This document shows positions 811-63,805 of a stretch of DNA of 64,000 bases, in pieces. The notes under the pieces are model-generated. The model ran no database searches. It saw only the letters and a list, made by a program, of their open reading frames with translations, and was not told where the DNA came from. Location of the stretch: contig CM075990.1 in the NCBI GenBank assembly GCA_038087875.1, positions 6,822,001-6,886,000 on the forward strand. Reading direction: 5' to 3'. The position numbers and the translations under genes were made by a program. Source of the DNA: Malacoraja senta. Lineage: Eukaryota. Every line of letters begins with the position of its first letter. Position 1 is the first letter of the stretch.

Positions 811-1258
811 AGGCGCAAAATGCTAGGGTAACTCAGCGGATCAGGCAGCATCTCTGGAGAAAAGGAATTGGTGACGTTTCAGGTCGAGACCCTTCTTCAG
901 ACTGAGAGTCGGGGAGAGGTAAACAAGGGGGATGAAAAGGTACAGAACCGGCACCGATAACAAAAGAGTTCACAATGGTCCATTGTTGGCTGTGGAGGAG
1001 GTGATAATGAGGGGATACGAACAGTAAAACAAACAGGACGATGAGGGTGGGGGAGGGATGGTGAGAGAGGGAATGCAAGGGTTACTTCAAATGAGAGAAA
1101 TCAATATTCATACCACTGGGTTGTAAGCTGCGCAAGCAAAATTTGAGGTGCTGTTCCTCCAATTTGCGTGTGTCTTCACTCTGACACTGGAGGAGGCTTA
1201 GGACAGAAAGGTCAGTATGAGAATGGGAAGGAGAGTTAAAATGGTTGGCAACCAGGCG
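811..1258 (-). mobile_element. Penelope-like element 3' fragment: GIY-YIG C-terminus, 3' region, hammerhead motif and tail
   Basis: ANHFNSPSHSHTDLSVL...RKLEEQHL...LQPSGMNIDFS resembles a PLE endonuclease end. It is followed by CTGAAGAAGGGTCTCGACCTGAAACGTC on the minus strand at about 872-900. Confidence 0.8.
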
Positions 1259-1879
1259 ATTGCCGGGAGAACTGGCCAGTCTCATATTGCCGTAAGGCAA
1301 AGAGTGCGTTTAGAGTGGAAATGCTTTTAACCTCTGCGGGACCTCATCTCCCTTTCTGGATGGGATTGACATGGTCCTTTACTGTCAAAGCTTTGTGTTG
1401 CATGCTATCCAGTCAGATCAGATATACTATACATAAGTCCAATCAAGTCAAACTCGTCTAATAGGTAGAGCCAAGGAGAAGATACAGCATGCAGAATATA
1501 GTTCACATCATTGTAGTGCAACAGCCCGATGGACAAAGTCCAATATCCACAGTGGGGTAGAGGTGAAAATACCATTAGAACATTTAGACATGGTGCTATA
1601 CTTGTAGGTAGTGAAAAGATTTAAGTGTTGAGTGACTGTGTTGGGTGATGGCAGATCCTCCTCTGGGAAGGACGCGCAAAGAGTCGCCACCCTCCGGTGC
1701 CATCAATGTTGAATTGCCGCCCTCTGTCTTAGACCAGAGTTGGCAGAACAAGCTGTTGCAGTATTACTGTGTGCAACTCTTCAAGGCTGCGGTATGTGCT
1801 GTAACAACCCAGTAGTACCAGTGACAGGACTGGCTGGCGTACATACACTGGGAAGGCAGGAGGAAGGCTGCTGCCCTAA

Positions 1880-1910
<31 letters not shown>

Positions 1911-2209
1911 ACACAGCGGCCTTCATGTGCCCCCACAGACCCGTGAGCCGCACTCGATCCCACAAGGCATGAGACTGCGCAACCACGCTAACGTCATCTA
2001 CGACAGACGGCCAAGTGATGGGAAATAAAGGCTGGAAACACTCGATGGCTCAGACCAGGGTCATCTTAACAGTATTATAGGTCCCCGGGCAATGCAGTGC
2101 ACTGGGGCTCCTACCTACACTGAGAAGTGCCTCTTCTTCTGATCCGTCATATCTAGTAAGACGTACACTTCGCTTTTGTTCCCGTTTTTTTCACATCGCG
2201 ATAATCTTT

Positions 2210-3005
2210 GGTGGCAAAAATGGGAAGGCAGACTATTATCTAAATGGTGGCCGATTAGGAAATGGGGAGATGCAGCGAGACCTGGGTGTCATGGTACACC
2301 AGTCATTGAAAGTAGGCATGCAGGTGCAGCAGGCAGTGAAGAAAGCGAATGGTATGTTGGCCTTCATAGCAAGAGGATTTGAGTATAGGAGCAGGGAGGT
2401 TCTACTGCAGTTGTACAGGGTCTTGGTGAGACCACACCTGGAGTATTGCGTACAGTTTTGGTCTCCAAATCTGAGGAAGGACATTATAGCCATAGAGGGA
2501 GTGCAGAGAAGGTTCACCAGACTGATTCCTGGGATGTCAGGACTTTCATATGAAGAAAGACTGGATAGACTTTGCTTATACTCGCTAGAATTTAGGAGAT
2601 TGAGAGGGGATCTTATAGAAACGTACAAAATTCTTATGGGGTTGGACAGGCTAGATGCAGGAAGATTGTTCCCGATGTTGGGGAAGTCCAGGACAAGGGG
2701 TCACAGCTTAAGGATAAGGGGGAAATCCTTTAAGACCGAGATGAGGAAAAACTTTTTCACAGAGAGTGGTGAATCTCTGGAACTCTCTGCCACAGAGGGT
2801 AGTTGAGGCCAGTTCATTGGCTATATTTAAGAGGGAGTTAGATGTGGCCCTTGTGGCTAAAGGGATCAGGGGGTATGGAGAGAAGGCAGGTACGGGATAC
2901 TGAGTTGGATGATCAGCCATGATCATATTGAATGGCGGTGCAGGCTCGAAGGGCCGAATGGCCTACTCCTGCACCTATTTTCTATGTATCTATGTATCTA
3001 TCTGA
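2210..3005 (+). mobile_element. CR1/HER1 LINE 3' fragment nested in the hAT element
   Basis: RDLGV...LVRPHLEYCVQFWSP...RTRGHSL, followed by the 3' UTR and a CTATGTAT-type tail. Confidence 0.92.
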
Positions 3006-3662
3006 ATCTGGACACCTACTCCTTCCAATTCGTATTCACTAAATTCGTCTCTAATTTCCTAAAGATAGTTTTTCAGAGACTCAAGAAGATTCATGGCAAC
3101 AAGTATGTTCATGTCCTCTGACCGCAGGACCTTACTTGTTTTGTTCACTCTTTCAAGAATGTCATCCCAAATAATTGTGAGAAAGATGGTTTCCAGGTTC
3201 TCCATTTTCTCGCTCAACCCTTCTGCCCCTCAACCCAACATGCCAGCTGATACAGAATCCAGTGCATGTTTAATTTTCTCCAAACCCCCATGAACAGCAT
3301 CAAAATGTGACGACCATCTCGTGTCAGACAGACGCTTGACCACAACATCTAAAGATGATGCCAGAATATTCCATCGATGTGTAGAAGCGGAGAAAAAGGA
3401 ATACAGACACTGAACAAAGGCAAAGAATTTTACAGTCTGTAGACAAGACTCTGCCGCTTTTACACCCACCAAGTTCAGGCTGTGGCCAGCACAGGGGACA
3501 TAGATGGCAAACTCATTCAGTTGATGAATCCGTGCTTGCAATCCAGTATAGCGTCCAGACATATTTAAGGCATTGTCATACGACTGACCACAGCAGTTTG
3601 ATAGTGGAATTTTGTTCTCATTAAGGAAATCCACAACAGTGTCTGCTAGGTTTTTTGCTCCA
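3006..3662 (-). pseudogene. hAT (ZMYM1-like) transposase remnant
   Basis: GQSYDNALNMSGRYTGLQARI...YVPCAGHSLNL...LSDTRWSS are hAT catalytic-core motifs. The sequence is fragmented. Confidence 0.85.
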
Positions 3663-61800: not shown

Positions 61801-62062
61801 GAGTTTTTTGATTCCGAGTTGCTTGGTAGTTTATTGAACATGCTGCACAAAGGGATGCAACTTTCTTTTCATGTAACAATGACAATGCTGATGAGTCTTA
61901 CATTTTGTAAACCATTCACTGCTTGCTTGGATCAATAAAATAATAATCTCAGGTTTGAAAGGTTGCGTTTATTATATCCTTGACTGTCACTTCTGCCCCC
62001 CACAGTGGGGGCTGTGCCATCCTCAATCCAGTCCCTCACAGCTTCTCAGCCTTTAGTTTAGA

Positions 62063-62262
62063 NNNNNNNNNNNNNNNNNNNNNNNNNNNNNNNNNNNNNN
62101 NNNNNNNNNNNNNNNNNNNNNNNNNNNNNNNNNNNNNNNNNNNNNNNNNNNNNNNNNNNNNNNNNNNNNNNNNNNNNNNNNNNNNNNNNNNNNNNNNNNN
62201 NNNNNNNNNNNNNNNNNNNNNNNNNNNNNNNNNNNNNNNNNNNNNNNNNNNNNNNNNNNNNN
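62063..62262. other. Assembly gap (200 N)
   Basis: Run of N about 150 bp past the PDZ3 exon. Confidence 1.
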
Positions 62263-62411
62263 AGGCTCAGGTCCCTGTGTGCAGTGGGGGAGAGCATTTT
62301 GTCTATTAGCTTTGTCGTTGGAGAAGTGGGAATCGAACCCTGGTCTTTAACACGGTGGGGGGCATATACCCCCCCCCCCCACCTCATTAGTCTACAGTAC
62401 GACGCATTTAC

Positions 62412-62510
62412 CAAGATTTGGGGGTCGATTTCAGGCAGGTATCCTGGTGCCGTTCTGCACATCCTCATGGTGACTTCAGGGGGAGCTCCCCGTAGGAGAT
62501 GAAGCACCTC
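62412..62510 (-). CDS. PTPN20: FRMPD2/PTPN20 exon: second part of PDZ3
   Basis: Acceptor ttcaacag|, 99 nt encoding [33 protein letters not shown], donor |gtaaat. [10 protein letters not shown] matches FRMPD2 PDZ3 as I recall it. Phase 0/0. Confidence 0.92.
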
Positions 62511-63805
62511 CTGTTGAAAGGGAGATAAGAGTTGAGCAGGAATCTCGATCCGATACCATCTACTTACAAGCGCTCGGAGCGGTAGCTGTGAGCGCCGTGG
62601 TAAAGGTGCACAATCATTCACGGAGTAGAACTACAATCCCTTCAATTAATCACACTGATTCTTTCAGCGGCACGTCGGAGAACTGCTGTAGAAGACAGAA
62701 CGTAGTGGAGCAGGGCACCATTAAAGTGTTGACAAAGACATAACGCTGGAGTCAAAACAGGACAAGTAAGTTAAAAGTGAAATGCAGTATCATTAATCTT
62801 AGCTTAGCTAGTCAGTGACCTCGGCAAGAAGGTTAAACCCTTTCACTAAAGAAAGGGGGTTGAATAGATTAGATGACAACTCTCCCCCGCAGAAAATTAA
62901 TGTTTTAATGGCCGATTGGATAGATATTCCAATATCAATACCGTTGCCATTAATAGGCTCATATGTCTCAACTCACTGCCTTATCCTCCTGCGGTTAAAG
63001 GTCAGTGGGAATTAGTTACATGCTTCAAATACAAAGTGCAAGACCAATGCCGGGCCGAATCATAAATAAAGCAATCGCCAATGGCTCAGGTAGTCCATGC
63101 AGAACTAAAGCATGATGCAGTGTTAGAATTAGCCTCCTACTGTTATTGAAGAATCTCTATCAGAAGGAAATATTAGCGTTTCAATCACACTCATGGTGGA
63201 GTAGCACTGCTGATAAAGCTGCTACCTCATTGTTAGAGATCCGGGTTCAAACCTGACTTCGGGGCATGTCTGTGCGGAGTTTGCATGTTCTCCCTGTGAC
63301 CGCGTGGGTTTCCTTCAGGTGCCCCGGCTTTCCTCCCACGTCCCAAAGACGTGCGGGTTTGGAGGCTAATTGGCCTCTGTAAATTACCCCTAGTGTGTAG
63401 GGAGTGGATGAGAAAGTGGGATAACATGCAACTTGTGTGAATGGGTGATGGATGGTCGGGGTGGGCTGAAGGGCCTGTTTCCACGCAGTTTTACTCAACT
63501 AACTAAAATTCTGATCAGAAGTCATCAACTTTAAATGTTAGCTTTGTTTCTCTCTCCACAGATGCTGCCTGACCTGCTGAGTATTATGAAGATTTTCTGA
63601 TTTTGTTTAATGGGGTTTCTTGAATTGTCTTCGCTCCTTCCTTGGAAAAAGGTTTATTAATTTCACAAGAGGTTAGACACAAAAAGCTGGAGTAACTCAG
63701 CGGGACAGGCAGCATCTCCGGAAAGAAGGAATGGATGACGTTTCGGGTCAAAACCGATCTTCAGACACAATTTCACAAGACACTGGTTGCTGTTCAGCCA
63801 CTCAC

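What the first reader, a model, noticed from the sequence alone, without database searches (positions are those of the whole stretch)
869..63768. Dispersed minimal hammerhead ribozyme motifs carried by Penelope-like tails
Seen: about two dozen short repeats begin with CTGAAGA-A-[stem II]-GAAAC-GT(C/T). Examples are at 872-, 3920-, 4050+, 11028+, 15569+, 23478+, 26553-, 35358+, 37868+, 38935+, 46603+, 47880+, 58143+ and 63735-. Two subfamilies keep the pairing while the sequence changes. Stem II is GGGU-CUCG-ACCC or GGGU-UUCG-GCCC, the cleavage triplet is GUC or GUU inside a palindromic ACGU stem III, and the first stem I pair is U-A or U-G. Longer copies attach the motif to a GIY-YIG C-terminus. 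Established: Penelope-like elements carry minimal type I hammerheads with palindromic stem III that work as dimers, and an extra A after A9 is tolerated in some natural hammerheads. Inference: this is an abundant ribozyme-bearing retroelement system in this genome. Several intact cores (26553, 63735) lie on the sense strand of the PTPN20 pre-mRNA. Caveat: stem I is only 2-3 bp.
Basis: partly seen in the sequence, partly recalled or inferred. Interest (0 to 1): 0.75.

Follow-up and report, generated by a model that had tools for sequence, protein, structure and literature searches.

The report
Penelope retroelement ends with minimal hammerheads
A short repeat scattered through this cartilaginous-fish gene is the cut-off end of a Penelope-like jumping gene and carries the minimal hammerhead ribozyme motif already known from that class; most copies are mutated and likely inactive leftovers.

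Summary
The repeat is real: 21 matches to the motif against 0 in shuffles, and 39 repeat hits in all. It is the 3' end (pLTR plus tail) of a Neptune-type Penelope-like element. Three copies follow a GIY-YIG C-terminus, one follows an RT remnant, and target-site duplications, inverted partners and a 30-nt optional tail occur. The layout (extra A after A9, 4-bp helix II, loop-less ACGU helix III) matches the minimal hammerheads of Cervera and De la Pena 2014, including a coral Neptune element. Corrections: only 3 of 26 cores keep every feature (900-, 35358+, 38935+), and none of them is sense to the PTPN20-like gene. No covariation above shuffles; the hammerhead fold is not the predicted fold. 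One useful extra: copies begin a few bases 5' of the core, not at the cut site, so uncleaved RNA was likely the template. Cleavage is untested. The scan reported the same element type, and this 5' boundary, in other ray, shark and fish-type genomes. Verdict: new member of a known kind.

The parts
873..900 (-). Minimal hammerhead core, all features kept (G-U at 10.1-11.1, 2-bp helix I); outside the gene's coding span
901..1081 (-). Pyrimidine-rich 3' UTR / pLTR between the endonuclease stop codon and the core
   Evidence: homologous to 34544-34815 (70%) and 46554-46602 (84%)
1082..1261 (-). C-terminus of a Penelope-like GIY-YIG endonuclease with its stop codon
   Evidence: E 8e-17 to a profile of RT+GIY-YIG relatives
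3852..3947 (-). Subfamily B copy (UUCG loop, GUU), no helix I, in tandem behind the 4049- copy
3954..4148 (.). Head-to-head inverted pair (4049-, 4053+), both cores damaged
11028..11123 (+). Copy with element UTR upstream; triplet GCC (U16.1 lost)
11160..11248 (+). Solo copy, A9 lost, 8-bp target-site duplication
12958..64000 (-). Host gene (PTPN20/PTPN13-like, PDZ and PTP exons); copies in this span are intronic
15569..15690 (+). Subfamily B copy with long tail; helix III pair broken
18464..18786 (-). Endonuclease C-terminus remnant (18703-18786), UTR and a copy with a deleted core half
23478..23572 (+). Solo copy, helix II base broken
25791..25930 (.). Older inverted pair centred on a short palindrome in the core
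26488..27066 (.). Composite insertion: inverted copy 26581- (A·C at 10.1-11.1), tail piece 26588+, RT-thumb remnant 26742-26930+, copy 26986+
   Evidence: E 1e-24
30832..30897 (-). Copy with C3 and 16.2 changed
31517..31613 (-). Copy with G12A and long tail
34389..34819 (-). Endonuclease remnant (34697-34819), UTR and copy 34484- (C3U, 10.1 mismatch)
35358..35438 (+). Solo copy, all hammerhead features kept, 9-bp target-site duplication; predicted cut after 35385; antisense to the gene
37075..37272 (.). Two divergent copies head to head with a 23-nt spacer
37868..37925 (+). Short copy, helix III pair broken, 11-bp target-site duplication
38935..39060 (+). Subfamily B solo copy, all features kept, long tail, target-site duplication of 12 bp or more; predicted cut after 38962; antisense to the gene
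46603..46698 (+). Copy with about 50 nt of element UTR upstream; helix II mismatch
47114..47266 (.). Inverted pair centred inside helix II on a native palindrome; first core half lost
47880..47969 (+). Solo copy, G8U
48168..48261 (+). Solo copy, C3U
58047..58426 (.). Inverted pair 58141-/58143+ centred on 58142, followed by a weak RT-EN linker remnant at 58337-58426+
   Evidence: E 0.005
63669..63764 (-). Solo copy, C·C at 10.1-11.1, 12-bp target-site duplication; sense to the gene

Best explanation
The repeats are 5'-truncated ends of a Penelope-like retrotransposon, likely of the Neptune group, that carry its minimal type I hammerhead motif and are mostly mutated in that motif. Shown: the motif sits on the element's sense strand about 180 nt after the GIY-YIG stop codon, and short copies run from a few bases 5' of the core to one of two 3' ends about 30 nt apart, often inside target-site duplications or as head-to-head pairs. 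Inferred: the element's RT/endonuclease protein nicks the target and starts cDNA inside the RNA about 95 or 130 nt past the core, as shown for the anole element. It usually stops at the 5' edge of the hammerhead, and fold-back at short native palindromes makes the inverted partners. Because copies keep the core 5' of the cut site, the template was likely uncleaved RNA. The hammerhead would cut only in the parent element, as a dimer through the ACGU palindrome and probably with protein help. The dispersed copies then decay and likely do nothing to the host gene.
For: Endonuclease C-termini upstream of 3 copies and an RT-thumb remnant upstream of a fourth. Full-length relatives carry RT and GIY-YIG Pfam domains, and 51 of 54 have a CX2-5CxxC motif in the last 220 aa, the cysteine-rich linker that marks Neptune (passages). 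Target-site duplications of 8 bp or more in 6 of 12 solo copies against 6 of 132 mismatched pairs; all six end 2-6 nt before C3. Long tail in 8 of 39 hits. Inverted pairs centred on native palindromes, as described for PLEs. In four public runs 88,416, 14,730, 9,838 and 2,696 contigs were laid; loose ends with random flanks pile at 901-905, and summed depth falls about 34-fold just 5' of the core in X7. The strict descriptor finds 4 sites against a shuffle mean of 0.03. Core columns rarely carry shared variants: 1 of 10 against 29 of 62 other non-CpG columns, Fisher p=0.028. The same layout is in the published alignment for an Acropora Neptune element.
Against: No full-length parent was found, so clade and tandem arrangement rest on remnants and protein relatives. 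The window's own remnants do not reach the cysteine linker motif. No covariation above shuffles (107 of 500 reach the score). RNAalifold does not predict helix II. Helix II probability is at most 0.05 in four copies, and the dimer fold lies 13-22 kcal/mol above the cofold minimum in three. The conservation test is biased, because the 21 rows were picked for a recognisable core; singletons are also lower in the core (0.5 against 1.06 per column). The loose-end table shows 24 rows and hides 1,587; ends at 905 may reflect other subfamilies' UTRs. Rfam finds nothing.
Confidence: 0.82

Rival explanations
1. The hammerhead is vestigial in this lineage. Helix I has shrunk to 2 bp, and the motif is kept only as part of a promoter, splice or protein-binding signal of the element, with no cleavage even in the parent.
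For: 2-bp helix I in the subfamilies seen. The purine-rich core is predicted to pair with the downstream pyrimidine tract. No covariation. In the anole element hammerhead mutants insert normally and no RNA ends map to the cut site (PMC11167929).
Against: The core positions resist shared change across subfamilies. A 2-bp helix I occurs in D. virilis Penelope. The anole hammerhead also shows no cleavage alone yet cuts with protein.
Confidence: 0.3
2. The short unit is a non-autonomous, SINE- or retrozyme-like element that is transcribed and copied in its own right by the PLE protein.
For: 21 of 26 cores lack element UTR upstream. The short region is over ten times deeper than the endonuclease end. 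Retrozymes are reported to derive from PLE pLTRs (bioRxiv 10.64898/2026.07.22.740005, passages).
Against: 5' ends vary by 2-6 nt and inversion centres differ between insertions, which fits fresh truncation at each insertion. The same subfamily tails occur joined to the ORF. No head-to-tail arrays beyond two units (3947/4049, 11028/11160). No internal promoter was shown.
Confidence: 0.15
3. Intronic copies are working ribozymes that cut or regulate the PTPN20-like pre-mRNA.
For: Sense copies exist in introns (8 of 20 cores in the gene span).
Against: 0 of those 8 keep all features; the 2 intact intronic copies are antisense. No strand bias (11 plus, 10 minus among core-bearing hits from 21.5 kb on).
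Confidence: 0.03
4. The hammerhead likeness is chance within an ordinary repeat.
For: Short helices, no Rfam hit, no covariation.
Against: Both core boxes, the extra nucleotide, G10.1-C11.1, the palindrome and a UH site are all in register, at the place where PLEs carry the motif. The shuffle expectation is 0.03 per window, though all copies count as one ancestral event.
Confidence: 0.03

Closest known systems
Minimal hammerheads (min-HHR) in pLTRs of metazoan PLEs, Cervera and De la Pena 2014 (PMC4209133)
   Same: CUGANGA, an extra nucleotide after A9, G10.1-C11.1, GAAA, a loop-less palindromic helix III, position in the repeat after the ORF, thousands of solo copies per genome. The Acropora Neptune row has a 4-bp helix II opening with GGG, a 4-nt loop and the same CGUC end.
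   Different: Helix I is 2 bp here, against 3 bp in the Acropora row and 4-5 bp in Schistosoma; 2 bp is reported only for D. virilis. No cartilaginous fish is in their Table S1.
Poseidon element of Anolis carolinensis (PAc), Frangieh et al. 2024 (PMC11167929)
   Same: Two 3' ends that define a 30-40 nt tail, and a hammerhead just upstream of them; uncleaved RNA as template fits the copies here.
   Different: Different clade. There the ORF starts in stem II; the ORF start here is unknown. Activity was shown there and is untested here.
PLE insertions with inverted pLTR, tail and TSD (Arkhipova et al. 2013, PMC3846280; Craig et al. 2021, PMC8557442)
   Same: 5' truncation, head-to-head inverted copy with a palindrome at the junction, optional tail, 8-12 bp TSDs, Inr-like motif in the pLTR.
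   Different: Most insertions here are only 70-135 nt and start at the hammerhead's edge.
Non-LTR retrozymes (PMC7229834 abstract; bioRxiv 10.64898/2026.07.22.740005)
   Same: Short, non-coding, hammerhead-bearing, related to PLE pLTRs.
   Different: Those are tandem repeats (mean consensus 363 bp in the one chondrichthyan sampled) and are reported as excluded from introns. These are dispersed, intronic and still joined to ORF remnants.

Membership tests
EN+ Penelope-like element | RT plus C-terminal GIY-YIG endonuclease in one ORF | tested here: met
   Only as remnants: EN C-termini and an RT thumb; full-length relatives have both domains. No whole ORF in the window.
EN+ Penelope-like element | pLTRs in partial tandem or with an inverted 5'-truncated copy | tested here: met
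   26488-27066 composite and five more inverted pairs
EN+ Penelope-like element | Optional 30-40 nt tail | tested here: met
   8 of 39 hits carry the long end
EN+ Penelope-like element | Spliceosomal intron in the pLTR | tested here: inconclusive
   The candidate skip 902-1085 is not among 15 joints shown of 311; runs were contigs, RNA status guessed
Neptune clade | Cysteine-rich CX2-5CxxC linker between RT and EN | tested here: met
   In relatives only: 51 of 54; the window's remnants do not cover it
Neptune clade | Placement in an RT phylogeny with named Neptune elements | not tested
   No named reference sequences were at hand
Minimal type I hammerhead | CUGANGA and GAAA cores, extra nucleotide, G10.1-C11.1, UH site | tested here: met
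   Majority state in 21 aligned copies; all features together in 3 of 26
Minimal type I hammerhead | Palindromic 15.2-16.2 without loop III | tested here: met
   C-G in 14 of 21, paired in 16 of 21
Minimal type I hammerhead | Helix I of 3-5 bp | tested here: not met
   2 bp; D. virilis variant also has 2 bp, so this marks a short variant
Minimal type I hammerhead | Compensatory changes across families | tested here: inconclusive
   Not above shuffles; few, close subfamilies and much neutral decay
Minimal type I hammerhead | Self-cleavage as a dimer or with protein | not testable with these tools
   No raw RNA reads were listed
Non-LTR retrozyme | Head-to-tail tandem arrays of a hammerhead-bearing unit | tested here: not met
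   Copies are dispersed or inverted; at most two in a row
Rfam hammerhead families | Score above a family threshold | tested here: not met
   0 gathering hits in the window; no hammerhead family to E 10 at 38700-39200

The most novel reading that the evidence does not exclude
The element's transcript starts at the Inr-like TCAGT that forms helix I. The many short copies are then strong-stop-like products: cDNA begun inside the RNA and run off its 5' end. The hammerhead sits at the very 5' end of the RNA with a 2-bp helix I, folded off by the downstream pyrimidine tract, and would cut only after the element's protein binds, perhaps destroying or releasing the template after copying. Copy boundaries would map the start site and give a genome-scale handle on what PLE hammerheads are for.
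Probability: 0.3. Interest if true: 0.55.

Novelty: new member of a known kind. Interest (0 to 1): 0.24.

Why it matters
It adds a very abundant cartilaginous-fish family to the known PLE hammerheads and shows that such motifs in host introns are mostly debris. The role of PLE hammerheads is still open. The fixed 5' boundary at helix I, and no visible pile at the cut site, is a cheap genomic test of whether cleaved RNA is ever the template.

Tried and rejected
No whole genome is held, so copy number and a parent element could not be had. Rfam: nothing. DNA-pattern scans found 0 in viral contigs and 0 in metagenome contigs. Protein-anchored scans matched 64 and 41 stretches, none confirmed. Ten prokaryote loci from the tail motif are chance: 7 of 10 match only model positions 43-79 and none has a core. 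Plasmids: no match. No RNA holder listed; the runs laid are contigs and cannot show starts, ends or strand. Intron from the stop codon to the AG before the core: not seen among the joints shown, the donor is weak and the would-be branch point lies too close to the AG; splicing would not lengthen helix I in the three copies with a stop codon. A longer helix I with a bulge: not consistent across subfamilies, by inspection. The 4-bp helix I of 25844- comes from its inverted partner and was not counted. The descriptor hit at 59409- is unrelated to the repeat and taken as chance. Lunse et al. (PMC5785218) is not held: only its title and a review's summary were seen. Literature searches for Neptune+Penelope+skate+transposable and Penelope+initiator+transcription start+pLTR gave 0 papers. 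Four shark or skate names gave 0 hits in one supplement file of PMC4209133; its other file was not searched. Repbase and Dfam were not available, so the family may be catalogued there.
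Full report
Observation. The repeat is there. A 28-nt pattern of the motif has 21 matches with up to 3 mismatches in the window and none in 100 shuffles. 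A profile from four window copies finds 43 hits, 39 at E<1e-3, including copies without the core. A strict minimal-hammerhead descriptor finds 4 sites (900-, 35358+, 38935+ and an unrelated 59409-) against a mean of 0.03 in 100 shuffles. Scoring the 26 copies with a recognisable core, 3 keep every feature. Rfam has no hit at gathering level and no hammerhead family to E 10 around 38935.

Host. Exons of a FERM-PDZ-PTP gene lie on the minus strand from 64000 to 12958. The best hits, at 73-74% identity, are shark proteins named PTPN13 and PTPN20-like. The closest named hit of the endonuclease piece is from a skate, so the window is likely from a cartilaginous fish. Twenty of the 26 cores are intronic: 8 sense, none complete; 12 antisense, 2 complete. 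There is no strand bias.

What the repeat belongs to. The copy at 900- lies 181 nt after the stop codon of a GIY-YIG C-terminus on the same strand; 34484- and the damaged copy near 18514- have the same layout. At 26488-27066 an inverted copy, a tail piece, an RT-thumb remnant (E 1e-24) and another copy form the classic inverted pLTR / ORF remnant / pLTR structure. A weak linker remnant follows the pair at 58142. Full-length relatives of 730-1130 aa carry RT and, in part, GIY-YIG Pfam domains, and 51 of 54 have the CX2-5CxxC motif in their last 220 residues. Two papers name that linker as the Neptune mark (passages). I did not build a tree with named Neptune elements. Six of 12 solo copies have flanking direct repeats of 8-12 bp, against 6 of 132 mismatched pairs. 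Eight of 39 hits carry a 3' extension of about 30 nt, the PLE tail. The inverted pairs are centred on short palindromes native to the element: across the base before the core (58142, 4050), inside helix II (47187) and inside the core of an older family (25840). Palindromes at such junctions are already described and read as self-priming.

Abundance and 5' boundary. Laying four public runs on 740-1340 placed 88,416 contigs in X7 and 14,730, 9,838 and 2,696 in three runs of other species. These are contigs, not copies. Summed depth in X7 drops from 2.4 million at 887-907 to 70,000 at 908-928. Loose ends with near-random flanks (agreement 0.33-0.40) pile at 901-905, one to five bases 5' of C3. 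None of the 24 rows shown is at the cut site (872/873); 1,587 rows were hidden. The window agrees: the six target-site duplications end 2-6 nt before C3, and only 5 of 26 cores keep element UTR upstream. Copies thus include the core that cleavage would remove, so the template was likely uncleaved. The bases before the core in the longer copies read TCAGT. That fits an initiator consensus (recalled), and an Inr-like TCACT is noted in a rotifer pLTR. A start site there is an inference only.

Is it a working ribozyme? The layout equals the published minimal hammerhead: extra nucleotide after A9, G10.1-C11.1, palindromic 15.2-16.2 without a loop (PMC4209133, parts 1-2 of 4 of the text). The Acropora Neptune row in its supplement differs mainly by a 3-bp helix I (part 1 of 3 of one supplement file). 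Core columns rarely carry variants shared by several copies (1 of 10 against 29 of 62, p=0.028), which suggests selection in the parent lineages; the rows were chosen for a visible core, so this is biased. Against activity: helix I is 2 bp. Pairs vary on one side only, and the covariation score is reached by 107 of 500 shuffles. RNAalifold predicts only a tail helix. Helix II has probability 0.05 or less in four copies, because the purine-rich core pairs downstream. The dimer fold is 13-22 kcal/mol above the cofold minimum in three copies. Published minimal hammerheads are inactive as monomers and weak as dimers. The anole one cuts only with the element's protein, is not needed for insertion in vitro, and leaves no RNA ends at its site (PMC11167929, parts 1-2 of 4). 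Cleavage here could not be tested: no raw RNA reads were listed.

Mechanism. Shown: position, boundaries, duplications, inversions, decay. Inferred: target-primed reverse transcription that starts inside the RNA at one of two sites, mostly ends at the hammerhead's 5' edge, and sometimes folds back. The hammerhead would act only in the parent's RNA, as a dimer and with protein. The intronic copies are passengers.

Papers seen: PMC4209133 and PMC11167929 as above; PMC8557442, PMC3846280, PMC2377424, PMC6765202 and bioRxiv 10.64898/2026.07.22.740005 as passages; PMC7229834 as the start of its abstract in a listing; Lunse et al. only by title and a review's summary. Supplements of the preprint and one supplement file of PMC4209133 were not seen and may list chondrichthyan families.

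Earlier notes of this scan describe the same kind of element in ray, shark and fish-type genomes, one with the same 5' boundary. They are unchecked AI notes and not evidence; I had noted the boundary before reading that one.

Verdict. A real and abundant feature, a new member of a kind described in 2014, with the host-regulation hint not supported. Interest 0.24.

Noticed in passing
window 386-554, 2206-2968, 8095-10928, 12346-12510, 15694-16392, 21610-22001, 50396-50766 and others: Many CR1-like LINE fragments, with a long decayed endonuclease-RT copy at about 8100-10930 on the minus strand.
   Followed up: no
window 14572-14855, 17716-17791, 22418-22702, 44439-44726, 52737-52999, 54552-54817, 59957-60135, 63227-63439: A second abundant SINE-like family that looks like the HE1/V-SINE of sharks and rays (name recalled, not tested).
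   Followed up: no
window 971-1012 (-): A short palindromic stretch in the PLE 3' UTR is far better covered than its neighbours in all four runs and is partly kept in 34484- and 11028+; possibly a conserved promoter or binding site.
   Followed up: partly
tail of the repeat, e.g. 46631-46655: A pyrimidine tract ending in YAG just before an ATG follows the cut site in the main subfamilies and looks like a splice acceptor; a small hairpin follows it.
   Followed up: partly
window 23936+, 56810+, 63550+, 25844-, 56450-: Older, divergent subfamilies with a CUGAUGA-type core and different helix II; too decayed for pair counts.
   Followed up: partly
P0001: A skate neuromedin-U receptor model ends in 55 residues of this PLE endonuclease: exonisation or a gene-model error.
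   Followed up: no
window 3230-3712 (-): ORF that reads like a hAT/zinc-finger transposase fragment (by eye; Pfam gave no hit).
   Followed up: no
window 46273-46494: 37-bp tandem repeat, about five units, just upstream of the 46603+ copy.
   Followed up: no
window 33525-34280 (-): RT-like LINE fragment of a different family directly beside the 34256- copy.
   Followed up: no
window 35043-35242 and 62063-62262: Two 200-N gaps.
   Followed up: no
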